Assembly (NCBI RefSeq): GCF_036365525.1
Contig: NC_090410.1
Location: forward strand, 7,267,873-7,331,872
DNA: 64,000 bases
Source of the DNA: Heterodontus francisci
Taxonomy: Eukaryota
Reading direction: 5' to 3'
Shown here: positions 5,371 through 62,885 of the stretch, in pieces
How positions within the stretch are numbered: the first letter of the stretch is position 1
Layout: every line of letters begins with the position of its first letter
The notes under the pieces: model-generated
The model's input: the letters and a program-made list of their open reading frames with translations, nothing else
What the model was told of the DNA's origin: nothing
Database searches by the model: none
Translations under genes and position numbers: made by a program

Positions 5371-5384
5371 CATCATTTTTTGCA

Positions 5385-7910
5385 TTTATTCTTGAGATGT
5401 GAGCATCGCTGGAAAGGCCAGAATTTATTGCCTATCCCTAATTGCCCTTGAGAAGGTGGTGGTGAGCCACCGCCTTGAACGACTGCAGTACATGTGGTGC
5501 AGGTATACCCACAGTGCTGTTAAGAAGGGAGTTCCAGGGTTTTGACCCAACGACAGTGAAGGAACGGCTATATAGTTCCAAGCCAGGATGGCGTTTGCCT
5601 TGTAGGGGAACATGCAGATGGTGGTGTTCCCATGCAGCTGCTGCCCTTGTACTTCTAGGTGGGTAGAGGTTGCAAGTTTGGAAGGTGCTGTTGAAGAAGC
5701 CTTGGTGAGTTGCTGCAGTGCATCTTGTAGATGGTACACACTGCTGCCACTGTGCGCCAGTGGTGGAGGGAGTGAATGTTTAAAGTGGTGGATGGGGTGC
5801 CGCTGAAGTGGGCTGTTTTATCCTGGATGGTATCGAGCTTCCTGAGTGTTGTTGGAGCCGCACTCATCCGAGCAAGTGGAGAGTACTCCATCACACTTCT
5901 GACTTGTGCCTTGTAGATGGTGGACAGGCTTTGAGGAGTCAGGGGATGAGTTACCCGCCTCAGAGTTCCCAGCCTCTGACCTGCTGTTATAATCACAATA
6001 TTTAAATGGCTGGTCCAGTTAAGTTTCTGGCCATTGGTAACCCCCAGGATGTTGATAGTGGGGGATTCAGCGATGGTAATGCCGTTGAATGTCGAGGGGA
6101 GATGGTTAGATTTTCTCTTGTTGGAGATGGTCATTTACTGGCATTTATATGGTGTGAATGTTACTGGCCACTTATCAGCCCAAGCCTGAACATTGTCCAG
6201 GTCTTGCTGCATTTGAACACGGACTGCTTCAGTATCTTAGGTGTTGTGAATGGTACTGAGCACAGCACAATCATCAGCAAACATCCCCACTTCTTGTTAA
6301 ATTCCAGAAAGTTTGTTATGGAAAGTTAAGGCTGGAGCTTGTATTTACTCAGTTTCACATTTACCGTGCAGAATAAAAGGATTACAAACATGTAGCTCCT
6401 CACTCAAAACCTTCCCCAGTCCCAGTGAATGTCTACTTATAAATGCTCAACTAAAACCCCAATTAACACCGTTCACTTGCATATAATCAAACCATTGACA
6501 CACAATTAACACTTCTGACCTTATGATGGAAGGAAGGTCATTGATGAAGCAACAGAAGATAGTTGGGCCTAGGACATTATCCCGAGGAACTTCTGCTGTG
6601 ATATTCTGGAGCTGAGATAATTGGCCTCCAACAACCATAATCATTTTCCTTTGTGCTTGGTATGACTCTAGCCAGTGGAGAGTTTTCCCCCGATTCCCAT
6701 TGACTTCAATTTTGCAAGGGCTCCTTGATATCAAGGGCAGTCACTCTCACCTCACATCTAGAATTCAGCTCTTTTGTCCGTTTTTTTCTGAGTCTATCCC
6801 ATTTAGCATGGTGCTAGTGCCACAGAGCACCATGGAGGGAGTCCTCAGTGTGAAGAAAGAACTTTGTCTCCACAAGGACTGTGTGGTGGTCACTCCTAAC
6901 AATATTGTCATGGATAGATTGATCTACAACAGGTGGATTGGTGAGGACAAGGTCAAGTAGTTTTTTCCCTCTTGTTGGTTCTCTCACCATTTGCTGCAGG
7001 CCCAGTCTGGCAGCTATGCCCTTTAGGACTTGGCCAGTTTAGTCAGTAGTGATGCTACCAAGCCAGTCTTTGTAATGGACATTGAAGTCCCCCACCCAGA
7101 CTACATTCTGTGCCCTTGCTACCTTCAGTGCTTCTTCCAAGTGGTGTTCAACATGGAGAAGTACTGATTCAGCAGCTGAGGGAGGATGGTAGGTGGTAAT
7201 CATCGGACGGTTTCCTTGCCTGTGTCTGGCTTGATGCCCTAAGACTTCATGGGGTCTGGAGTCAATGTTGAGGACTCCCAGGGCCATTTCCTCCCAACTG
7301 TATACCTCAGCTGTTGGGACAGACCATATCCAGGAATGGTGACAGAGGAGTCTGGGACATTGGCTATAAGGTATGAATTGGTGAGTATGACTATGTCAGG
7401 CTGTTGCTTGACTAGTCGATAGGGCAGATCTCCCAGTTTTGGCACAAGTTCCCAGATGTTAGTGAAGAGAACTTTGCAGGGTCAACAGGGCAGGGCGTGC
7501 CTTTGTCATTTCTGGTGCCTCGGTCAATGCCGAGTGGTCTGTCTGGTGTTATTCTTATTTGATTTTTCCTGTAGTGGTTTGATACAACTGAGTGGCTTGC
7601 TACGCCATTTCAGAGGGCAGTTAAGAGTCAACCACATTGCTGTGGGTCTGCAGTCACATGTAGACCAGACTGGGTAAGGATGGCAAATTTTCTCCCTTGA
7701 AGGGCATGCGTGAACCAGATGGGTTTTTACGACACTCCAAATGTTTCATGATCATTATTAATGAGACTAGCATTTTATTCCAGATTTATTAATTAATTGA
7801 ATTTAAATCCCCCCACCCCCAGAAACCGTGGTGGGATTTGAACTTATGTCTCCAGACCATTAGGCCAGGCCTCTGGAATACTAGTCCAGTACCACTACGC
7901 TACTGTTCCC
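5385..7910 (-). mobile_element. Degenerate, internally deleted CR1/L2-group LINE (APE endonuclease and RT) with a tRNA-derived 5' head
   Basis: EN: PDIVILTNSYL, VVWVGDFNVH. RT: VP..VLGPTIF..FINDLPS, TIYKAQVRSVMEYSPL. 3' tail CTTCTCAAGGGCAATTAGGGATAGGCAATAAA. The 5' 350 bp match the SINEs at 14100 and 29205. Confidence 0.8.
6295..6511 (-). mobile_element. Solo LTR (217 bp) inserted in LINE RT
   Basis: Termini TGTTAA...TTAACA; 5-bp TSD CTTCT (6290-6294, 6512-6516); host LINE resumes seamlessly. Confidence 0.7.
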
Positions 7911-8194: not shown

Positions 8195-8965
8195 TGTGAC
8201 TCAAAAGGTTGTGGGTTCCAGTCCCACTCCAGAGATTTGTGAACAAAATCTAAGTTGCCACACCCAGTTGCTGTGCTGAGGGAGTGCTGCACTGTTGGGG
8301 GTGCTATCTTTTCGATGAGACATTAAACCGAAGCCCCCTTTTCCCTCTCAGGTGGATGTAAAAGTTCCTATTTTGGGTGGCACACTGGCACAGTGGTTAG
8401 CACCGCAGCCTCACAGCTCCAGCGACCCGGGTTCAATTCTGGGTACTGCCTGTGTGGAGTTTGCAAGTTCTCCCTGTGTCTGCGTGGGTTTCCTCCGGGT
8501 GCTCCGGTTTCCTCCCACATGCCAAAGACTTGCAGGTTGATAGGTAAATTGGCCATTATAAATTGCCCCTAGTATAGGTAGGTGGTAGGGAAATATAGGG
8601 ACAGGTGGGGATGTGGTAAGAATATGGAATTAGTGTAGGATTAGTATGGATGGGTGGTTGATGGTCGGCACAGACTCGGTGGGTCAAAGGGCCTGTTTCA
8701 GTGCTGTATCACTGAACTAAACTAAAACTAAGAGCAGGGGAGTTGTCCCCCATGACCTGCCAATATTTATCCCTCAACCAACATCACTGAAATCAAATGA
8801 TCTTCCCATTAACACATTACTGTTTGTGGGATCTTGCTGTGCACAAATTGGCTGCTGTGTTTCCTGCATTACAGCAGTGACTATGCTTCAAAAGGTAATT
8901 CATTGCCTTTAAAGCACTTTGGGATGTCCGGAGGTCATGAAAGGTGCTATATAAATGCAAATCTA
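8195..8965 (+). mobile_element. DeuSINE interrupted by HE1 SINE
   Basis: Body breaks at CTATTTT (about 8374) and resumes AGAGCAGGGG (8731). Confidence 0.7.
8375..8730 (+). mobile_element. HE1 / V-SINE
   Basis: GGGTGGCACACTGGCACAGTGGTTAGCAC head, V-domain, CR1 tail ending (AACTA)n. Confidence 0.85.
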
Positions 8966-12416: not shown

Positions 12417-12690
12417 GGTGATAAGTCATGATATATGGTATGATGCTTGGAAAGTAATATGGCTGCTGAAATTACTTTGATAATAAGACATGTGACTGGA
12501 CTGGGTGTGATTTTACGAAGACTTGCATTTATATAGCGCCTTTCATGACCTCAGGATGTCCCAAAGTGCTACAAAACTAATGAAGGAATTCTGAAGTGTT
12601 GTAATGTGTGAGTCTGGCATGCAGGAGCTATTTAATACGCTTGTTCACTCTTGTAAGATTTGTCTAAGTAACTTCTTGTTTGATTTTTAG

Positions 12691-13543
12691 AATCCTCCTC
12701 ACAGTGGTGGTGATCTTCCGAATTTTAATCGTTGCGATTGTCGGCGAGACGGTCTATGAAGATGAGCAGACTATGTTCCTGTGCAACACGCTTCAGCCCG
12801 GCTGTAACCAGGCCTGCTATGATAGAGCTTTCCCCATTTCCCACATCAGGTACTGGGTCTTCCAGATCATCCTGGTGTGCACGCCAAGCCTCTGCTTCAT
12901 CACGTACTCTGTGCACCAGTCGTCCAAACAGAGGGAAAAGCGTTTCTCCACGCTCTATTCTCTTCTGGACCGGGATTTCACCAGAGTGTCTGCGGAACAG
13001 AAAGAGGACACGAAGCCGAGAAGCAGCCTCATCAATGGGATTCTGTGCCAGAGCCGAGAGGGAGCTACACAGGCACTGGAACCAGACTACTTGGAGAGCA
13101 AGAAGATATCTAACCATTCAGGATGGATCAATAGCAAAAACATGAAGATTAAGCGTCAGGAGGGCATATCGAGATTTTACATCATCCAAGTGGTCTTTAG
13201 GAATGCCTTGGAGATTGGCTTCTTGATGGGACAATACTTTCTCTACGGGTTCAACGTTCCTGCAATCTTTGAGTGCGACAGGTATCCTTGTGTCAAAGAG
13301 GTGGAGTGCTACGTTTCCAGGCCGACAGAAAAGACAGTCTTCCTGGTCTTTATGTTTGCAGTCAGCGGCATTTGCGTGGTTCTGAACCTGGCTGAGCTCA
13401 ACCATCTGGGCTGGAGGAAGATCAAGCTGGCTATCAAAGGAGTACAAGCCAAGAGAAAGTCCACGTTCGAGGTTAGGAAGAAGATCCCGCCATATTTCAG
13501 TGCCCAGGGAAGGGCCCAGTCTCGTGAGTCTGCATATGTATGA
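12691..13543 (+). CDS. Gap junction delta-2-like connexin, coding exon 2 (307 aa in total)
   Basis: Acceptor tttttag|A is phase-compatible with exon 1. Encodes [44 protein letters not shown]...[14 protein letters not shown] and C-terminal SAYV*. Exact paralog (gjd2 vs gjd1-like) cannot be resolved without phylogeny. Confidence 0.95.
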
Positions 13544-14021: not shown

Positions 14022-14091
14022 GACAAGGTGGCCGAGCGGTTAAGGTGTTAAACTTGTAATCCACACATGGGTACAAATCTCATCCTTGCTG
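14022..14091 (+). pseudogene. tRNA-Ser(GCT)-derived pseudogene
   Basis: GACAAGGTGGCCGAGCGGTTAAGG...TAATCCA-CACATGGGTACAAATCTCATCCTTGCTG follows vertebrate tRNA-Ser(GCT) (GACGAGGTGGCCGAGTGGTTAAGG...GGGTTCGAATCCCATCCTCGTCG). The variable arm is deleted and the B box and anticodon are degraded. Confidence 0.6.
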
Positions 14092-14099
14092 TTAATTTA

Positions 14100-14445
14100 G
14101 GGGAGATGGTGGTGTAGTGGTAATGTCACCAGACTAGTGATCCAGAGGCCCAGGCTAATGGCCTGGGGAAATGGCTTCGAATCCCACCATGACAGCTGTG
14201 GCATTTAAATTCATTTGATTAATAGAAATCTGAAATTGAAAAGCTAGTCTCTGTAATGGTGCCATGAAACTATCATCAATTGTCGTAAAAACCCATCTGG
14301 TTCACTCATGCCCTTTCAGGAAGGAAATCTGCTGGCCTATATGTGACTCCAGACCCACAGCAATGTGTTTGATTCTTAACTGCCTTCTGAAATGGCCTAG
14401 CAAGTCACTCAGTTCAAGGGGCAATTAGGGATGGGCAACAAATTA
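14100..14445 (+). mobile_element. tRNA-derived SINE sharing head and tail with the LINE at 5385-7910
   Basis: GGTGGTGTAGTGG (A box), TTCGAATCCC (B box), CCCATCTGGTTCAC...GACTCCAGACCCACAGCAATGTG core, GGGCAATTAGGGATGGGCAA tail. Confidence 0.75.
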
Positions 14446-28183: not shown

Positions 28184-29204
28184 GTACGTGGAGGAATTGA
28201 ATCTCGTCAGAACTTACCACCCAACTCCAGGGTTTTACATGCGGACAAGTGTAGCTTAAGCTTTCATCCCACATATACCAACTGACCAGAAGAAATTCCC
28301 ACTAGCGGTTAATGAGAGAACAGTGCAGTCTGATTCCACTTGGAAGGTGTCATCGATATAATATAAAACTGCTTTATTTAACAGCGCCTGTATCTTGGCA
28401 TTGTCTCTATTGTAATGTTCAGTTTCAATTACCATGAAAGTAGCTGCTGTGTAGTTCACAGACTCTGAATCATACGGTATTGCAGCATTAATTGGGTTTG
28501 ACCCCACTTCAATTTGAAGGGGCAGTGTTCAAGGTTACAGCATGTATTTGGCAGAGCAGAACTCTTTTTTTTTTTTAGGTACCTTTCTAACATTGATTTT
28601 GGGTGAAAAAAATCTTATCCGTGCAACAGCTGATTTAGCTGGAGTCTCAAACAGTTTGAATTGTTTCAATGTTCCACTGATTCGGGTCTTCTTGTATTGC
28701 ATCTCGTTATTTTCCATGCTTGTACTCCCAAAATCTTCGCACAGATCTCTTCCAAAGGGCTCTCGGAAGAACTTTCCATGATGTCCGATCTTAAATACCT
28801 TAAACAATAATAATTTAACACCTCTTCAGCCAACTGGACCAATCGTAGTAAGTGAATGCCATCAATGATCTGAAAAGATCTTTCAACAGGGTGAAGTTAC
28901 AGTTACCAAGTTAATGTAACTGATTATTTTGTTTCATTTTAAGGATTTATTGCACTGTGTGATCTGCAACAAGTCTTTGGAGAATAACCCCCTTGTATTT
29001 GTCTTCAATTGAGCTAGGAAATTGTGCTAAAAATTATATCTATCCGCTTAACTTTTATCTTCATAACCTTTGCTACTTGACAGAAAACCAAGGAGAATAT
29101 TTTTTTTTTGTTAAGCTCTACAAACACATCTTGGAAAACTTGGCTGTTGCTTTAGTCGTGTATGCACCCCTACAATTTTAAGTTTCAATCACAAGGGGTA
29201 CGCT

Positions 29205-29590
29205 ACGGTAGGGTAGTGGTTGTGCTACTGCATTGGTAGTCCAGAGCCCTGGACTAATAATCCAGGGAATGAGAGTTCAGATCCCACCATAATAGTGGAA
29301 TCTGGAAATAAAAAGCCGGTATCTGTTTAAAAATGACAGTGAAGCTGTCGGAATGTTGTAAAAACCCAACTGATTCCTTTTAGGGAAGGCAACCTGCTGT
29401 CCTTACCCAGTCTAGCCGATGGGTGACTCCAGGTGCACCCAATGTGGATGACGCTTGTGCTCTCTGGCCTAGAAAACCACTTGGGTTGTATCAGATGCTG
29501 CTAAGCACTTCTAGAAGAAGGCCCACCATCACCCTCTTGGTACAGCTAGAGATGGTCAATAAATTCTAGCCTTACCAGTGACAAAAATTA
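29205..29590 (+). mobile_element. tRNA-derived SINE related to 14100 SINE and 5385-7910 LINE
   Basis: GGTAGGGTAGTGG...GTTCAGATCCCACC head, TTTAGGGAAGGCAACCTGCTGTCCTTACCCAGTCT core, GTTGTATCA, then LINE-tail-like CCCACCATCACCCTC...GATGGTCAATAAATTC. Confidence 0.65.
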
Positions 29591-29749
29591 ATTAAATAAA
29601 GACTGAGGAAAACAAAAAACCTTCTGTTTCTTTAGTTGTTTTAACTTGGTATAATTTTCATGGTAGGATTTCAGTATTGGCCAGTATTGGATTAATTTAA
29701 GAAGGTTGACTGCCTAATTCAACCCATAATTTGAGCTACAGGTAGGTCA

Positions 29750-44211: not shown

Positions 44212-45065
44212 CATAGAGTTATACAGCACAGAAACAGGCCCTTCGGCCTATCGTGTCTGTGCCGGCTGTCAAGCACCTATCTATTCTAATCCCATTTTCC
44301 AGCACTTGGCCCATAGCCTTGTATGCTATGGTGTTTCAAGTGCTCGTCTAAGTACTTCTTAAATGTTGTGGTGATTCCTGCCTCTACCACTTCTTCAGGC
44401 AGTGTGTTCCAGATTCCAACCACTTTCTGGGTGAAAATTTTTTTCCTCAAATCCCCTCTAAACCTCCTGTCCCTTACCTTAAATCTACGCCCCCTGGTTA
44501 CCGGCCCCTCCGCTAAGGGAAAACGTTTCTTCCTATCTAACCTATCAATGTCCCTCATAATTTTGTATACCTCTGTCAGGTCCCCTCTCAGCCTTCTCTG
44601 CTCTAAGGAAAACAACCCAAGCCTTTTCAGTCTCTCTTCATAGCTGAAGTGCTCCAGCCCAGGCAACATCCTGGTCAATCTCCTCTGCACCCTCTCCAGT
44701 GCAATCACATCCTTCCTATAGTGTGGTGACCAGAACTGTACACAGTACTCCAGCTGTGGCCTAACTAGCGTTTTATACAGCTCCATCATAACCTCCCTGC
44801 TCTTGTATTCTATGCCTAGGCTGATAAAGGCAAGTATCCCATATGCTTTCCTAACCACCTTATCTACCTGTGCTGCTGCCTTCAGTGATCTGTGGACAAG
44901 TACAGCAAGGTCCCTCTGACCTTCTGTACTTCCTAGGGTCCTACCATCCATTGTATATTCCATTGCCTTGTTAGTCCTCCCAAAATGCATCACCTCACAC
45001 TTCTCAGGATTAAATTCCATTTGCCACTGCTCTGTCCATCTTACCAGCCCATCTATATCGTCCTG
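44212..45065 (-). mobile_element. Young 5'-truncated CR1/HER1 LINE
   Basis: Uninterrupted 262-aa ORF (WQMEFNPEKCEVMHFG...LEYCVQFWSP...GKWD*); possible TSD CTGGT. Confidence 0.92.
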
Positions 45066-45719
45066 GTGTTCCACATAGACTAGTTCTCTACTGTTGTTGT
45101 CATTCTAACAATATCTATATATCAATAACAAAGAATTATATGAGCACACAGACTACAATCAGAGTCTGTAGTGGGATACCCATATCCCAATAGCTGGCAG
45201 GGCCACATTGAGTAAATGTTATACATACAGCTTTCCCAGTGATATGTCATAGAGTTGTACAGCATAGAAACAGGCCCTTCGGCCCACTGCGTCCATGCCG
45301 ACCATGTCTTTCACCTCAAGGAAATTTAGTTGTGGACTAATTTTTTTTTAAAGTTAGATACAGATTACAGGTAACTTTCAAATGGAAATTTGATATGCAT
45401 TTGAAAAACAAAATTGCAAGGCTATGGGGAAAAAGCAGAGAGAATAGGGCTAATTGGATAGCTCATTCAAACAGTACAGGCACGATGGGTTGAATGGCCT
45501 CTTTCTGTGTTGTATGATTCTATGCACCTTGTATAGCTAGCTGGTTGGTCCTAATTCATTTGACAGCTCAGTTTACTTCAAGGTGTGGACTGTAAAGGTG
45601 GCAGATTTAATCACTGAGTCTTGCTTAGTGATGTTGAGGCTTTGCTTATAACTCCAGTGCAATCTGTAATTAGTTTAAAAGAAAATTTTTTTTTTCCTTC
45701 CTACCCCTCCCAACAACAG

Positions 45720-49444: not shown

Positions 49445-50833
49445 CTTTTGGGCCTCCTCATCTCGAGAGACAATGGATACACGCCTGGAGGTGGTCAGTG
49501 GTTTGTGAAGCAGCGCCTGGAGTGGCTATAAAGGCCAATTCTAGAGTGACAGGCTCTTCCACAGGTGCTGCAGAGAAATTTGTTTGTCGGGGCTGTTGCA
49601 CAGTTGGCTCTCCCCTTGCGCCTCTGTCTTTTTTCCTGCCAACTACTAAGTCTCTTCGACTTGCCACATTTTAGCCCTGACTTTATGGCTGCCCGCCAGC
49701 TCTGGCGAACGCTGGCAACTGACTCCCACGACTTGTGATCAATGTCACAGGATTTCATGTCGCGTTTGCAGACGTCTTTAAAGCAGAGACATGGACGGCC
49801 GATGGGTCTGATACCAGTGGCGAGCTCGCTGTACAATGTGTCTTTGGGGATCCTGCCATCTTCCATGCGGCTCACATGGCCAAGCCATCTCAAGCGCCGC
49901 TGACTCAGTAGTGTGTACAAGCTGGGGATGTTGGCCACCTCGAGGACTTCTGTGTTGGAGATATGGTCCTGCCACCTGATGCCAAGTATTCTCCGGAGGC
50001 AGCGAAGATGGAATGAATTGAGACGTCGCTCTTGGCTGACATACGTTGTCCAGGCCTCGCTGCCATAGAGCAAGGTACTGAGGACACAGGCCTGATACAC
50101 TCGGACTTTTGTGTTCCGGGTCAGTGCGCCATTTTCCCGCACTTTCTTGGCCAGTCTGGACATAGCAGTGGAAGCCTTACCCATGCGCTTGTTGATTTCT
50201 GCATCTAGAGACAGGTTACTGGTGATAGTTGAGCCTAGGTAGGTGAACTCTTGAACCACTTCCAGAGCGTGGTCGCCAATATTGATGGATGGAGCATTTC
50301 TGACGTCCTGCCCCATGATGTTCGTTTTCTTGAGGCTGATGGTTGGGCCAAATTCATTGCAGGCAGCCGCAAACCTGTCGATGAGACTCTGCAGGCACTC
50401 TTCAGTGTGAGATGTTAAAGCAGCATCGTCAGCAAAGAGGAGTTCCCTGATGAGGACTTTCCATACTTTGGACTTCGCTCTTAGACGGGCAAGGTTGAAC
50501 AACCTGCCCCCTGATCTTGTGTGGAGGAAAATTCCTTCTTCAGAGGACTTGAACGCATGTGAAAGCAACAGGGAGAAGAAAATCCCAAAAAGTGTGGGTG
50601 CGAGAACACAGCCCTGTTTCACGCCACTTGGGATAGGAAAGGGCTCTGATGAGGAGCCACCATGTTGAATTGTGCCTTTCATATTGTCATGGAATGAGGT
50701 GATGATACTTAGTAGCTTTGGTGGGCATCCGATCTTTTCTAGTAGTCTGAAGAGACCACGTCTGCTGACTAGGTCAAAGGCCTTGGTGAGATCAATGAAA
50801 GCAATGTAGAGGGGCATCTGTTGGGTTAGGGTT
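49445..50833 (-). mobile_element. Young 5'-truncated RTE (BovB-like clade) LINE with 19-bp TSD
   Basis: Open ORF: AFIDLTKAFD, GVKQGCVLAPTLF, LLFADDAA, C-terminal CSTCGRACHSRIGLYSH; TSD AATGCTTGCAAACACTATT at 49426-49444 and 50834-50852. Confidence 0.95.
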
Positions 50834-53529
50834 AATGCTTGCAAACACTATTAGAGATTCTTTATTTAAAGTGCCTAAAACCCCATGACTGGGTCCAGTA
50901 CTTCAAACTTTGCTCCTGATTCATTTGAGGAACCCACTGATGACATTTCCATTTTAATATTCCCTTTTATTTAAAAAAAAAAATCCAGGCAATGTAACTT
51001 TTTGTTTGGGTTCAGGTGACTGTACGAACAAGGAGTAGGACTGAGTTTTTAATGCCCCTGAATCTCTGGGCCTTGTGTGCTTCCTTTTATTGGTAGATGC
51101 ACACTAGTGTTACCACCATTACAAGCTCCACATAATTTGGTCTGACTTGTTCCTCACTGATCGGAGTTGGACAATGGGGTGCATTTTATCTCAAGTCCGC
51201 ATTTGTGAATAACTCCAATAACCTCTCAGCTGCAGCCCTCATAACCTTGTGGTGTGGCATGATACTCTCACTATGGAATTTAAAAACAGAAAACACTCAA
51301 CAACTGTGGCCAGCACCCACAGTTAACGTAGCAATTGGGACACTTGGTTTATTGTGATTAATTTTTCAGTCGCAGCTGCCTTTATATCAGACTTGCAGCG
51401 TATGTTCCATTTTGTTAAAAACCTGCATCTGATTTTAACCTGCAACCATTTGGATTTAACTAGAGTGAGAGCAGTGCAGAGCTACTATAACACTAGCAAA
51501 CAAGTGTATAAAGTGAGATGTGGCTGGCCTGTGTGCCTGGGTTTATATTATTCGTAGGTTTAGCAAACCTGTGTGTACGCACGCCTGCTGGTTGTAAACA
51601 TTGCAGGTTGGAAAAGCTGCTTCCACTTTCAGCCTCCGCTTGCTCTGTTTGCCAGGTTCTGCTCAGATACCTACCCTCCTCCTGAATGTGCCACAGGGCT
51701 TCGGCAGAAGCTGTAATTTACTGTTGTCTTACGCATGCTCTATGTGTTCATCCTAGAACAGCTGAGCCTTCAATAATCTGAAATTTTAAACACAATTACT
51801 TGTCATCAATACAATTTATTTGTACTGATTTTACAGTCATTTTGTAAATAAATCTTTTAATACAACATTGAGCAGGTTAGTCACTTATTAAAGCAAAATC
51901 ACTTCATTATGTTGAGACCACATACATTTCTGGTCCATACGCTCACTGCTCACACTGATTTCAACTACACTGGCACTCCACACATATCCTTTGCAATTTT
52001 GAGTGAGCAGTGGTTGGAGCGGAGAGGCTACAATACTCTGGGCACAGAATACAGTTATTTGATCTGCAACAAGTAGATTCAACCAAATAACTGAAGTGAT
52101 AGTAGATACTGGGTATTATAATCCTTGGAATCTGATGTTGAATGATAGATTTAACGCTAATTTGAAGTCTCAGTTCAAGTGAATTTGAATAGGAAGACCA
52201 AAACTAGGGGCCATCAATATAAGATAGTCACTAATAAATCCAATAAGGAATTCAGGACAAATATCTTTGGTTAGAGTGGTGAGAATATGGCACTCACTAC
52301 CACAGGAAGTAGTTGAGGTATAGCATAGATGCATTTAAGGGGAAGGTAGATAAGTACGTGGAGAAGAAAAAACTGGCATTTGTGTAGCGCCTTTCACGAC
52401 AAGACCCCTTAAAGCACTTTTAAAGTATACTGACTGTTGTAGGTTTTGTTTAGGGTCTCAAAGCCTCAAACTCCAACAGAAAAAGCACTGCAGCTGTTTG
52501 GCCACTGGTTTTGAAAAGTAACAGACATAGGCTACCCAAACCATAACCAGGGCTGCAATGAGAAAGAACAAACTCTGTACCACTAACACTTCCCTCAAAC
52601 ATCTCAAGACACTCTACCTAGAACAGAGGAATGTATAGTTACTGTTACCTTAACTGTGGCAGGTAATTTGGGCAAAGCAGTGCCAAATGAGCAAATGCAA
52701 AATTAAGAACTTTGCATTCAGGTAGATTATTAAAAGCACAACCAGAGAGATGGGACCTCTAATCAGTTGTGACATCCAGAGAGATTGAGAACTTGGCATT
52801 GTATAGAAGGATCTTTAATCCTTCAAAATGATACCCCAAGGATATATATGTCCACAAACCAACACATTGACAAACACACACACACCCCTGCTCTGTTTTC
52901 TGTGCGGACATTTTCCAATTAATTACATCCTACTGTAGCTTTCCAGCTCCTCACCTTCCTAAGAATTGAATGCAAAGCTAGGGTTGACTAAACAGTTCAC
53001 TAAATTTCAGCAAAAGGTAAAAGGGAAGACAGTCGGCATTTGAGAGACAAATGAAACATTTTGGGTAGAAATCCTACTTTCGAGATTAATTGAAAGTGTA
53101 GAGGGGCCTTTACGCCGCATTTAACTGTGACACTTAAAAAGTGCTCAGTAGGACAGTATGAATGGAGTGAGCTGGGAATGGTTAATGGGACAGTATAGAG
53201 GGGTTTATGCTGCATAAAACATGCTACACCTCAGCAGGGAGCACCTGATGCAAATACTTGCCAGAAACAGAAAATGTTTCATTCTCTAGCACTAAAGCTC
53301 CCTTAACGAGAACAGAATGAATCAGGGAATAGGGTGCACATTTTCCAGCCTCCTGTCCCAGCATATCAGGAGTTAGAAGGGCTGTGTTCCATTGGATCTT
53401 TAGTGCAAATTGCAGAATCATGAAATTCCATACATCATAATGCCACACTCTGTACGACTAATAGAAACACTTCCAGCCATGTTGAAATTTATGAATAAGG
53501 TAAAGACAAGCCCCCAAACTGCAGAAAAA

Positions 53530-55987: not shown

Positions 55988-56164
55988 CTGCAACAGACAG
56001 AACACCAGGTGAGACAAAAGCTACAATGGGATCAGTCTCTGTCTTGCTGGTTTACAGGAAGATTCTGCCAACTCAATCATAAATCTCCACCTCCCAGGAT
56101 GGTGTTGAGGCCACCAGGCGACAGGTTGCATCCCCAGTCTCGACCATTTTCAGATGGACTCCCG

Positions 56165-57432
56165 TTCACCATTGCCCCCGTTCCATTCACCCTCCCCCCC
56201 GTTCCATTCACCTTCCCCCCCCATTGCCCCCAATTCCATTCACCCTCCCCCCCCATTGCCCCCAATTCCATTCACCCACCCCCCCCATTGCCCCCAATTC
56301 CATTCACCCACCCCCCCCATTGCCCCCAATTCCATTCACCCACCCCCCCCATTGCCCCCAATTCCATTCACCCACCCCCCCCATTGCCCCCAATTCCATT
56401 CACCCTCCCCCCCCATTGCCCCCAATTCCATTCACCCTCCCCCCCCATTGCCCCCAATTCCATTCACCCTCCCCCCCCATTGCCCCCAATTCCATTCACC
56501 CTCCCCCCCCATTGCCCCCAATTCCATTCACCCTCCCCCCCCATTGCCCCCAATTCCATTCACCCTCCCCCCCCATTGCCCCCAATTCCATTCACCCTCC
56601 CCCCCCATTGCCCCCAATTCCATTCACCCTCCCCCCCCATTGCCCCCAATTCCATTCACCCTCCCCCCCCATTGCCCCCAATTCCATTCACCCTCCCCCC
56701 CCATTGCCCCCAATTCCATTCACCCTCCCCCCCCATTGCCCCCAATTCCATTCACCCTCCCCCCCCATTGCCCCCAATTCCATTCACCCTCCCCCCCATT
56801 GCCCCCAATTCCATTCACCCTCCCCCCCATTGCCCCCAATTCCATTCACCCTCCCCCCCATTGCCCCCAATTCCATTCACCCTCCCCCCCATTGCCCCCA
56901 ATTCCATTCACCCTCCCCCCCCATTGCCCCCAATTCCATTCACCCTCCCCCCCCCCATTGCCCCCAATTCCATTCACCCTCCCCCCCCCATTGCCCCCAA
57001 TTCCATTCACCCTCCCCCCCCATTGCCCCCAATTCCATTCACCCTCCCCCCCCCATTGCCCCCAATTCCATTCACCCTCCCCCCCCATTGCCCCCAATTC
57101 CATTCACCCTCCCCCCCCATTGCCCCCAATTCCATTCACCCTCCCCCCCCATTGCCCCCAATTCCATTCACCCTCCCCCCCCATTGCCCCCAATTCCATT
57201 CACCCTCCCCCCCCATTGCCCCCAATTCCATTCACCCTCCCCCCCCATTGCCCCCAATTCCATTCACCCTCCCCCCCCATTGCCCCCAATTCCATTCACC
57301 CTCCCCCCCCATTGCCCCCAATTCCATTTACCCTCCCCCCCCATTGCCCCCAATTCCATTTACCCTCCCCCCCATTGCCCCCAATTCCATTCACCCTCCC
57401 CCCATTGCCAATTCCATTCACCCTCCCCCCCC
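56165..57432. repeat. About 31-bp C-rich minisatellite (CCATTGCCCCCAATTCCATTCACCCTCCCCC)n, about 40 copies, in the OPA3 intron
   Basis: Highly homogeneous tandem units with variable C-run length. Confidence 0.97.
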
Positions 57433-57499
57433 ATATTAATATTTGCCCCTCTTATTTCTTCCTCTCTATTTTCCAATCTCAATGTGACATTTCGACCTC

Positions 57500-60654: not shown

Positions 60655-62885
60655 TAGGTTAGGTTTACCTTAGCGATGGGCAGGGACAGGTATATACCGC
60701 AGGGCAAGAATTATAGCTGGGGGAAAGGAAATTATGATGCGATTAGGCAAGATTTAGGATGCGTAGGATGGGGAAGGAAACTGCAGGGGATGGGCACAGT
60801 CGAAATGTGGAGCTTATTCAAGGAGCAGCTACTGCGTGTCCTTGATAAGTATGTACCTGTCAGGCAGGGAGGAAGTTGTCGAGCGAGGGAGCCGTGGTTT
60901 ACTAAAGAAGTTGAAGCGCTTGTCAAGAGGAAGAAGAAGGCTTATGTTAGGATGAGACGTGAAGGCTCAGTTAGGGTGCCTGAGAGTTACAAGCTAGCCA
61001 GGAAGGATCTAAAGGGAGAGCTTAGAAGAGCGAGGAGAGGACACGAGAAGTCATTGGCGGATAGGATCAAGGAAAACCCTAAGGCTTTCTATAGGTATAT
61101 CAGGAATAAAAGAATGACTAGAGTTAGATTAGGGCCAATCAAGGATAGTAGTGGGAAGTTGTGTGTGGAATCAGAGGAGATAGGGGAAGCGTTAAATGAA
61201 TATTTTTCGTCAGTATTTACAGTAGAGAAAGAAAATGTTGTCGAGGAGAATACTGAGATACAGACTACTAGGCTCGATGGAATTGAGGTTCACAAGGAGG
61301 AGGTGTTAACAATTTTGGAAAGTGTGAAAATAGATAAATCCCCTGGGCCAGATGGGATTTATCCTAGGATTCTCTGGGAAGTCAGGGAGGAGATTGCAGA
61401 GCCTTTGTCCTTGATCTTTATGTTGTCATTGTCGACAGGAATAGTGCCGGAAGACCGGAGGATAGCAAATATTGTCCCCTTGTTCAAGAAGGGGAGTAGA
61501 GACAGCCCTGGTAATTATAGACCTGTGAGCCTTACTTCGGTTGTGGGTAAAATGTTGGAAAAGGTTATAAGAGATAGGATTTATCATCATCTTGAAAAGA
61601 ATAAGTTCGTTAGCGATAGTCAGCACGGTTTTGTGAAGGGTGAGTAGGTCGTGCCTCACAAACCTTATTGAGTTTTTTGAGAAGGTGACCAAACAGGTGG
61701 ATGAGGGTAAAGCAGTGGATGTGGTGTATATGGATTTCAGTAAGGTGTTTGATAAGGTTCCCCACGGTAGGCTATTGCAGAAAATACGGAAGTATGGGGT
61801 TGAAGGTGATTTAGAGCTTTGGATCAGAAATTGGCTAGCTGAAAGAAGACAGAGGGTGGTGGTTGATGGCAAATGTTCATCCTGGAGTTTAGTTACTAGT
61901 GGTGTACCACAAGGATCTGTTTTGGGGCCACTGCTGTTTGTCATTTTTATAAATGACCTGGATGAGGGTGCAGAAGGGTGGGTTAGTAAATTTGCGGATG
62001 ACACGAAGGTTGGTGGAGTTGTGGATAGTGCCGAAGGATGTTGTAGGTTACAGAGGGACATAGATAGGCTGCAGAGCTGGGCTGAGAGATGGCAAATGGA
62101 GTTTAATGCGGAAAAGTGTGAGGTGATTCACTTTGGAAGGAGTAACAGGAATGCAGAGTACTGGGCTAATGGGACGATTCTTGGTAGTGTAGATGAACAG
62201 AGAGATCTTGGTGTCCAGGTACATAAATCCCTGAAAGTTGCCACCCAGGTTAATAGGGCTGTTAAGAAGGCATATGGTGTGTTAGCTTTTATTAGTAGGG
62301 GGATCGAGTTTCGGAGCCACGAGGTCATGCTGCAGCTGTACAAAATTCTGGTGTGGCCGCACCTGGAGTATTGCGTGCAGTTCTGGTCACCGCATTATAG
62401 GAAGGATGTGGAAGCTTTGGAAAGGGTGCAGAGGAGATTTACTAGGATGTTGCCTGGTATGGAGGGAAGGTCTTACGAGGAAAGGCTGAGGGACTTGAGG
62501 TTGTTTTCGTTAGAGAGAAGGAGGAGGAGAGGTGACTTAATAGAGACATATAAGATAATCAGAGGGTTAGATAGGGTGGATAGTGAGAGTCTTTTCCCTC
62601 GGATGGTGATGGCAAACACGAGGGGACATAGCTTTAAGTTGAGGGGTGATAAATATAGGACAGATGTTAGAGGTAGTTTCTTTACTCAGAGAGTAGTAGG
62701 GGCGTGGAACGCCCTGCCTGCAACAGTGGTAGACTCGCCAACTTTAAGGGCATTTAAGTGGTCATTGGATAGACATATGGATGAAAATGGAATAGAGTAG
62801 GTCAGATGGTTTCACAGGTCGGCGCAACATCGAGGGCCGAAGGCCCTGTACTGCGCTGTAATGTTCTATGTTCTATGTTCTATTT
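60655..62885 (+). mobile_element. Young 5'-truncated CR1/HER1 LINE (2.2 kb)
   Basis: Two long ORFs (323 and 386 aa) separated by one small frameshift at about 61640; YRPVSLTS, QHGFVKG, GVPQGSVLGP, KFADDTK; (ATGTTCT)n tail. Confidence 0.95.

What the first reader, a model, noticed from the sequence alone, without database searches (positions are those of the whole stretch)
5385..7910. A LINE with a tRNA-derived SINE head in place of 5'UTR/ORF1, and SINEs that look like its internal deletions
Seen: on the minus strand, 7910-7560 is a tRNA-type head (A box GTAGCGTAGTGG, B box GTTCAAATCCC) plus the core CCCATCTGGTTCAC...GACCCACAGCAATGTGGTTGACTCTTAACTGCCCTCTGAAATGG...GCCACTCAGTT. It has no SINE tail. 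It continues GTATCAAACC... about 110 bp into an APE endonuclease frame (NIWELVPKLGDL..LVKQQPDIVILT...VGDFNVH), then RT, then the tail CTTCTCAAGGGCAATTAGGGATAGGCAATAAA. The SINE at 14100-14445 has the same head and core but jumps from CACTCAGTT straight to CAAGGGGCAATTAGGG. The SINE at 29205-29590 keeps the extra GTTGTATCA and joins a longer piece of the same tail, so it has a different breakpoint. Inference: the autonomous element is a single-ORF LINE headed by a Pol III-type tRNA promoter, and this SINE family arose more than once by internal deletion of it. Established: SINEs normally share only 3' tails with partner LINEs, or carry bipartite LINE ends behind a separately acquired head.
Basis: partly seen in the sequence, partly recalled or inferred. 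Interest (0 to 1): 0.8.

Follow-up and report, generated by a model that had tools for sequence, protein, structure and literature searches.

The report
Shark LINE with a tRNA promoter
A common jumping gene of sharks and rays begins with a tRNA-type promoter and has lost the T-runs that stop RNA polymerase III, so it may be a protein-coding retrotransposon read by the polymerase meant for small RNAs, and simple deletions of it keep producing ready-made SINEs.

Summary
Confirmed and extended. The element at 7910-5376 (minus) is a damaged copy of the elasmobranch Zenon LINE (CR1 group). The tRNA-head/core/endonuclease junction is a family trait: 12,367 exact junction matches in this genome, dozens of 3.2-3.3 kb copies starting at one position, and all 7 published shark and ray Zenon consensuses begin with the same head, unremarked in that paper's text. 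New here: the sense strand is purged of Pol III terminators. Both subfamily consensuses have no internal TTTT; copies carry 0.18 per kb against 3.4 in other LINEs of this genome; the window copy's only three lie in a later insertion. The 975-codon ORF has no in-frame AUG before codon 285. Short forms join head-core to tail at many breakpoints, are not one clade (AU p=0.0008), and young ones match the young LINE at both ends. Best reading: a Pol III-transcribed autonomous LINE that sheds SINEs by deletion. Known already: Zenon lacks ORF1 and makes deletion derivatives in moths. Not shown: polymerase, start codon, origin of the head.

The parts
7820..7910 (-). tRNA-derived head; family 5' end at 7910; A box 7902-7892, B box 7843-7834 (54-nt spacing)
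7586..7819 (-). 5' leader ('core') shared by the LINE and its short forms; most conserved part 7723-7586; ends with AUG-codon-UAG mini-frame at 7608-7600
6786..7585 (-). Start of the single ORF: basic N-terminal extension and APE endonuclease (frameshifted in this copy); no in-frame AUG in the family consensus
6785..6786 (-). Site of a copy-specific deletion of about 940 nt (about codons 281-596)
6512..6785 (-). RT domain, first remaining part
6295..6511 (-). Later 217-bp insertion, TG...CA ends, 5-bp duplication; solo-LTR-like, not part of the LINE; holds the only three TTTT runs of the copy
5438..6294 (-). Rest of RT and C-terminal part of the ORF; stop codon 5440-5438 lies inside the 'tail'
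5376..5437 (-). Short 3'UTR (about 55 nt) and A-rich end
14100..14444 (+). Short form (SINE), main junction class: head+core joined to the last codons and 3'UTR; tail cut off at about 14444
29204..29599 (+). Old short form of a second junction class, keeping about 10-15 nt more of the 5' side and about 35 nt more coding tail

Best explanation
An autonomous, single-ORF Zenon LINE of sharks and rays whose 5' end is a tRNA-derived type 2 Pol III promoter. SHOWN: fixed 3.25-3.3 kb unit (head, about 220-nt leader, 975-codon EN+RT frame, 55-nt 3'UTR, A tail); ORF under purifying selection; sense-strand T-runs purged; no AUG for the endonuclease; many head-to-tail deletion forms. INFERRED (about 0.75): Pol III starts about 12 nt before the A box and reads the whole element, which is why TTTT is purged, ending at the first T-run at or beyond the 3' end. 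INFERRED (about 0.5): the same uncapped RNA is translated by internal, non-AUG initiation guided by the conserved leader, as is thought for R2 (recalled). INFERRED (about 0.85): RT starts on the 3' tail and sometimes jumps to the end of the leader; since promoter and RT-recognition tail both survive, each deletion is at once a working SINE, and this happened repeatedly.
For: Family-wide junction: 12,367 exact LINE-type and 6,086 main SINE-type junctions; 18 of the first 30 core matches in genome order run on into the ORF; 12 of 29 copies picked by an EN-only probe reach the head and none shows another shared 5' end. 7 of 7 elasmobranch Zenon consensuses start with the head; 3 of 3 hagfish and coelacanth ones do not; six B-box probes hit only these Zenon rows in that table (first 400 nt of each row only). 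T-runs: 0 internal TTTT in the young and old consensus; TTT 4 against 15.6 expected from synonymous shuffles, z -3.7, the most depleted non-CpG trimer in the young ORF, while six control LINE frames give z -0.1 to -1.1; 0.18 TTTT/kb in 58 frames of this family against 3.4/kb in 15 frames of other LINEs; 53 of 53 long related ORFs from metagenomes have at least 1.2/kb; A-runs are not depleted. In-frame AUG 0 in codons 1-284 against 16 in the other 691, out-of-frame AUGs not depleted; 8 homologues hold 2-7 Met in their first 290 residues. Old versus young ORF: 91 synonymous, 65 non-synonymous codons, 100 of 169 changes at third positions. Short forms: at least 5 junction classes among 12 in the unbiased sample; monophyly rejected, p-AU 0.0008; 7 nest in the young-LINE clade (SH-aLRT 98) and 6 of them also have young-LINE tails; the same joints occur in four other sequencing runs.
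Against: No RNA evidence of start site, strand, cap or polymerase (all runs laid were contigs). Absence of TTTT alone is not significant against the element's own codon usage (P 0.06) or a first-order Markov null (P 0.13); it is the TTT deficit and the cross-family contrast that carry weight. Copies are not independent, and this family is poorer in T (0.20-0.21) than most controls (0.21-0.27). No Zenon without a head and of similar closeness was available as a control (nearest proteins 36-44% identity). The stingray consensus has a degenerate B box. Pol III RNAs lack a cap, and the field's view is that autonomous elements need Pol II (PMC10886601). No start codon was found; readthrough of the upstream AUG-codon-UAG is unlikely because 3 of 6 published consensuses read by eye are out of frame with it and Squalus has an in-frame stop. 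The head-core tree has 1 starred branch of 120 and no root; the young LINE clade sits among old SINEs, so a head passed back from SINE to LINE is not excluded.
Confidence: 0.68

Rival explanations
1. Two-transcript model: Pol III makes the full-length template RNA (hence the T-run purge), but the protein comes from a minority of capped Pol II transcripts (leader promoter or host read-through, perhaps with an AUG supplied by splicing or a frameshift) and acts in trans.
For: Explains the T-run deficit without translating uncapped RNA; efficient mobilisation of thousands of short forms shows that the protein works in trans; an out-of-frame AUG just before the basic extension is present in the young subfamily and 6 of 7 published consensuses.
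Against: That AUG is absent in the old subfamily here; the ORF stays under selection, which needs some preference for the coding RNA; no splice-type joint stood out among the best-supported joints.
Confidence: 0.17
2. The head is a vestigial or merely structural relic; the LINE is an ordinary Pol II element and T-runs are avoided for another reason (U-rich processing or decay signals, RT slippage, base composition).
For: Lower T content and C-ending codon preference in this family; ORF1-less Zenon elements work without a head in moths (PMC6740152).
Against: A and B boxes and the start position are kept across sharks and rays while the spacer changes; the deficit is strand- and base-specific and exceeds codon usage; no other LINE tested shows it.
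Confidence: 0.1
3. SINE first: a conventional tRNA-core SINE with a Zenon tail existed, donated head and core to the LINE by template switching, and the two have swapped ends since; the old, abundant SINE class is then not a deletion product.
For: Hagfish and coelacanth Zenons have no head, so it was acquired from somewhere; old SINEs mostly form their own cluster and the young LINE clade sits among them in the unrooted tree; junction microhomology (1-4 nt) fits either direction; Zenon-tailed tRNA SINEs exist in bivalves (PMC11481361).
Against: It needs the capture point to fall at the SINE's own core/tail border; no tail remnant lies between core and ORF; the oldest short forms keep 10-35 nt of LINE-only 5' sequence; young short forms with new breakpoints match the young LINE at both ends. 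It does not touch the Pol III question.
Confidence: 0.25
4. One-off chimera or SINE insertion in front of a truncated LINE.
For: None.
Confidence: 0.01

Closest known systems
Elasmobranch Zenon LINEs (CarCar, HypSab, RhiTyp, ScyCan, SquAca Zenon; Stuart et al. 2026, PMC13343379)
   Same: Same family: the first 400 nt of the published consensuses match head, core and ORF start by eye; 2.9-3.3 kb; no ORF1; A tail.
   Different: The paper's main text has no occurrence of tRNA, promoter or polymerase III; T-run purge, missing AUG and derived SINEs were not in the passages I saw.
Lepidopteran Zenon and its Persaeus SIDEs (Wang et al. 2019, PMC6740152)
   Same: Single-ORF 3.1-3.7 kb Zenon giving short 5'+3' deletion derivatives several times, with variable breakpoints and microhomology.
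   Different: Persaeus has no tRNA homology and no Pol III promoter and is therefore not a SINE; here the derivative inherits one from the LINE.
Bipartite LINE-derived SINEs (Bov-tA, WALLSI2, CoeSINE4; Kojima 2018, PMC5786205)
   Same: tRNA head plus LINE 5' and 3' parts.
   Different: There the head is added to a deleted LINE afterwards and the LINE is taken to be Pol II-driven; here the autonomous element carries the head.
RTE-1_DAn and relatives
   Same: LINEs with a tRNA-like sequence, mentioned in one sentence of PMC5786205.
   Different: RTE clade; position and function of the sequence not given in what I read; could be a precedent, not testable here.
Cassandra, Helenus, Ajax (TRIMp3; PMC10886601)
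   Same: Retroelements with Pol III promoters outside ordinary SINEs.
   Different: Non-autonomous, under 1.3 kb, LTR type; the author argues that autonomous partners must use Pol II.
R2 retrotransposons (recalled, not read)
   Same: Single ORF, RNA made by a non-Pol II polymerase and uncapped, unusual initiation; gives deletion derivatives.
   Different: R2 is co-transcribed with rRNA by Pol I and is site-specific; different clade and nuclease.

Membership tests
Zenon (CR1 group) | Single ORF with APE endonuclease and RT, no ORF1 | tested here: met
   975-codon frame; Pfam Exo_endo_phos and RVT_1; no other frame over 123 aa in the unit
Zenon (CR1 group) | A-rich / poly(A) 3' end | tested here: met
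Zenon (CR1 group) | Sequence identity with named Zenon elements | tested here: met
   5' 400 nt match published elasmobranch Zenon rows, compared by eye; rest of those rows is cut off
Zenon (CR1 group) | RT phylogeny places it in the Zenon clade | not testable with these tools
tRNA-derived SINE (short forms) | tRNA-related head with A and B boxes | tested here: met
   Rfam score below gathering threshold
tRNA-derived SINE (short forms) | Short, non-coding, multicopy, 3' end shared with a partner LINE | tested here: met
   about 400 nt; 6,086 exact main junctions
tRNA-derived SINE (short forms) | Transcribed by Pol III | not testable with these tools
   No raw RNA reads offered
SIDE (short internally deleted element) | Made only of 5' and 3' ends of a LINE, one junction | tested here: met
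SIDE (short internally deleted element) | Lacks small-RNA head and Pol III promoter (as defined for Persaeus) | tested here: not met
   Head present; works like a SIDE in origin, like a SINE in anatomy
MetaSINE | 66-bp Meta-domain right after the tRNA head | tested here: inconclusive
   No likeness by eye to two bivalve MetaSINE alignments; the domain consensus figure was not available
Canonical CR1 / L2 with ORF1 | ORF1 upstream of EN-RT; microsatellite tail | tested here: not met
   No ORF1; A tail; only 22-31% identity to the other LINE frames of this genome
Pol III-transcribed unit | No internal T4+ on the sense strand | tested here: met
Pol III-transcribed unit | Pol III occupancy, 5' triphosphate, A/B-box dependence | not testable with these tools
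   needs experiment

The most novel reading that the evidence does not exclude
An autonomous retrotransposon whose 3.3-kb protein-coding RNA is made by RNA polymerase III and translated without cap or AUG from a conserved leader, kept so since the shark-ray ancestor; it is a LINE and a SINE master at once, and its SINE 'core' is simply the LINE's functional leader, giving a direct route and a function for one enigmatic SINE body.
Probability: 0.45. Interest if true: 0.92.

Novelty: new variant of a known kind. Interest (0 to 1): 0.8.

Why it matters
The working rule is that LINEs use Pol II and SINEs Pol III, and that a SINE is assembled from separately acquired head, body and tail. This element breaks the first rule if the inference holds, and offers a one-step route to SINEs that can be watched happening several times in one genome. 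It would be a natural, long Pol III mRNA, making cap- and AUG-independent translation of Pol III RNA testable on a real substrate, and it suggests that a SINE core can be a LINE leader with a job. The T-run test used here can be run on any repeat library to find more such elements.

Tried and rejected
Target-site duplications: 1 plausible case among 34 copies with both ends; not a usable marker. Readthrough of the upstream AUG-codon-UAG: in frame in both subfamilies here but not in 3 of 6 published consensuses read by eye; rejected as general mechanism. Which frame codes between leader and endonuclease: old/young differences do not decide. Long-range pairing of 5' and 3' ends as deletion hot spot: a 7-bp stem coincides with the old junction class, but 3 of 48 control windows pair as well overall; weak hint only. 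Splicing as source of short forms: skipped part does not end in AG at the main junctions. Headed relatives outside elasmobranchs: none; 0 tRNA calls in 60 of 80 metagenome loci scanned, no B box upstream in the 80, but they are only 25-47% identical and many are 5'-incomplete. Core motif in viral contigs: 0. Expression: RNA runs hold the sequence but as contigs only, one is only guessed to be RNA; no evidence drawn. One search folded the wrong strand and region; discarded. The script stopped before its last step; identities were redone, where the old-SINE reference was built from the copies scored, which favours that match. Earlier findings of the scan: none.

Full report
OBSERVATION. The copy is damaged: about 940 nt are missing between EN and RT, and a 217-bp TG...CA insertion with a 5-bp duplication sits in RT. 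The short elements at 14100-14444 and 29204-29599 share head, core and tail but join them at different points.

IS THE JUNCTION A FAMILY TRAIT? Yes. A junction probe gave 40 scored matches, all near full length, from 4,779 candidates. An EN-only probe, blind to the 5' end, gave 29 other copies among the 30 loci fetched: 12 align into the head, 6 into the core (two of these reach the head when re-aligned), 11 stop further 3'; the upstream flanks of the 17 shorter ones share no alternative 5' end, apart from one duplicated pair and pieces of the element itself. A 26-mer at the core end has 13,484 exact matches (control 0); of the first 30 in genome order 18 run on into the ORF and 12 jump to the tail. 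Exact junction counts are 12,367 for the LINE type (this pattern also catches the old short class) and 6,086 for the main SINE type. Of 60 longer loci, chosen by similarity, 34 have both ends; young ones are 3.15-3.3 kb and start at the same G-run about 12 nt before the A box; homology ends there. One of 34 had a plausible TSD.

ANATOMY. The consensus of 24 young copies (91.5-97% identical to it) has one stop-free frame of 975 codons with APE and RT domains, ending inside the so-called tail; its last codons align with the C-termini of homologues, so the SINE tail is LINE coding sequence plus a 55-nt UTR. An older subfamily (19 loci, consensus 92% to the young one) differs at 91 synonymous and 65 non-synonymous codons, 100 of 169 changes at third positions, with CpG decay inflating the non-synonymous count: an autonomous lineage under selection. 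There is no in-frame AUG in codons 1-284, against 16 in the remaining 691, while out-of-frame AUGs are common, and about nine AUGs lie upstream in the leader; eight homologues carry 2-7 Met in their first 290 residues. Ordinary scanning therefore cannot make the endonuclease.

IDENTITY. Stuart et al. 2026 (PMC13343379; abstract, passages, and the first 400 nt of supplementary rows seen) report Zenon elements in elasmobranchs, hagfish and coelacanth, always without ORF1 and with a poly(A) tail. All 7 elasmobranch rows (5 species, sharks and a ray) begin with this head, core and ORF start; the 2 hagfish and 1 coelacanth rows do not. Six B-box probes hit only 6 of these rows in the whole table as held; the ray's B box is degenerate. 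The main text has 0 occurrences of tRNA, promoter or polymerase III. Near-identical sequence is held by runs of five coded organisms, and the head-to-tail joints recur in all four runs laid; those contigs were too short to show head-ORF contiguity or expression.

POL III SIGNATURE. Vertebrate Pol III stops at four or more T (established knowledge). Neither subfamily consensus has an internal TTTT in 3.3 kb. 12 of 24 young copies have none and no copy has T5. Open frames of this family carry 0.18 TTTT and 2.8 TTT+ runs per kb (58 frames, overlapping and related) against 3.4 and 14.0 in 15 frames of other LINEs from the same loci, whose counts match their synonymous shuffles. In the young ORF TTT occurs 4 times against 15.6 expected (z -3.7), the most depleted trimer without CpG; six control frames give z -0.1 to -1.1; AAA, CCC and GGG are normal. 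All 53 related metagenome ORFs of 600 aa or more have at least 1.2 TTTT/kb, though they are distant and richer in T. In the window copy the only three TTTT runs lie in the later insertion. Against over-reading: zero TTTT alone has P 0.06 under own-codon shuffles, 0.13 under a Markov null and 0.005-0.008 under looser nulls, and no close headless relative was available.

SHORT FORMS. The 12 short forms of the unbiased sample fall into at least five junction classes; about 13 of 29 relatives of the 29204 element share an older class that keeps more of both sides. In a tree of 123 head-cores (78 LINE, 45 short; 2 unclassified rows left out) short forms are not one clade (p-AU 0.0008); 7 lie in the young-LINE clade (SH-aLRT 98) and 6 of these also have young-LINE tails, while 31 have old-SINE heads and tails. 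This is what repeated deletion predicts. The tree is weak elsewhere and unrooted, and the young LINE clade sits among old SINEs, so exchange of heads in the other direction, and a SINE origin of the first head, remain possible.

MECHANISM. Most likely Pol III transcribes the entire element from the internal boxes (inferred, about 0.75); the RNA is translated by internal non-AUG initiation (about 0.5; otherwise from a rarer Pol II RNA); RT recognises the 3' end and inserts copies mostly without TSD; template jumps from tail to leader end yield elements that keep promoter and tail and so spread as SINEs (about 0.85). 6 of 39 intact 3' ends carry three or more extra T before the A tail, which may record termination at a T-run; not controlled.

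PRIOR ART. [quoted passage not shown] Also seen: PMC4824008 (parts 1-2 of 6, supplement part 1 of 4), PMC7140322, PMC7245038, PMC3531059, 10.1101/443036 (passages). Eight searches listed no paper describing a tRNA-headed or Pol III-transcribed autonomous LINE; the library lacks most subscription papers, Repbase and Dfam, the SINEBase supplement could not be read, and bioRxiv supplements are closed, so a database note may exist.

VERDICT. Real, family-wide, and at least as old as the shark-ray split. A new variant of a known element, with sequence evidence for a mode of expression not described for LINEs in what I could read. Interest 0.8.

Noticed in passing
window 6511-6295 (-): 217-bp solo-LTR-like insertion (TG...CA, short inverted ends, 5-bp duplication); 2,867 candidates in the genome, with pairs about 5 kb apart on three contigs, suggesting a full LTR element of that size.
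   Followed up: partly
window 14022-14091 (+): Rfam tRNA match (30.4 bits) ending 8 nt before the SINE at 14100; a degenerate tRNA copy. Whether this family prefers to land beside Pol III genes was not tested.
   Followed up: no
window 14444 onward: The SINE's tail is cut off and followed by unrelated sequence that looks CR1-like on the opposite strand (recalled motif; one search was in an uninformative frame).
   Followed up: partly
L212, L216, L230, L237, L239 (old short class, like window 29204-29599): The junction brings together a 7-nt word just after the core and its reverse complement near the ORF end, leaving a hairpin with a 3-nt loop; the 5' word is largely kept across species although the frame there is not. 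Overall pairing is not better than controls.
   Followed up: partly
3' ends of family copies, e.g. L137, L149, L169: 6 of 39 intact 3' ends have 3-5 extra T between the last conserved bases and the A tail, even in young copies.
   Followed up: partly
L131-L150, core: A young sub-lineage has a 24-nt deletion in the otherwise conserved core and still produced full-length copies.
   Followed up: no
window 8380-8640: Another tRNA-derived SINE on the + strand about 470 nt upstream of the element, resembling the V-SINE/HE1 type (recalled motif).
   Followed up: no
window 12668-13543 (+): 291-aa frame that reads like a connexin (gap-junction) gene (recalled).
   Followed up: no
window 49495-50847 (-), 60658-62800 (+), 44286-45104 (-): Long open RT frames of other LINEs: an RTE-like one with a C-terminal CCHH motif and two CR1-like ones (labels recalled); used as T-run controls.
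   Followed up: partly
window about 56100-57450: About 1.3 kb of C-rich tandem repeat, open in all three + frames.
   Followed up: no
L250, L263, L270, L280, L286 and similar: Many metagenome relatives are single-ORF elements of 1,100-1,200 aa with a shared hydrophobic N-terminal motif (about WRxxIGxF) ahead of the endonuclease.
   Followed up: no
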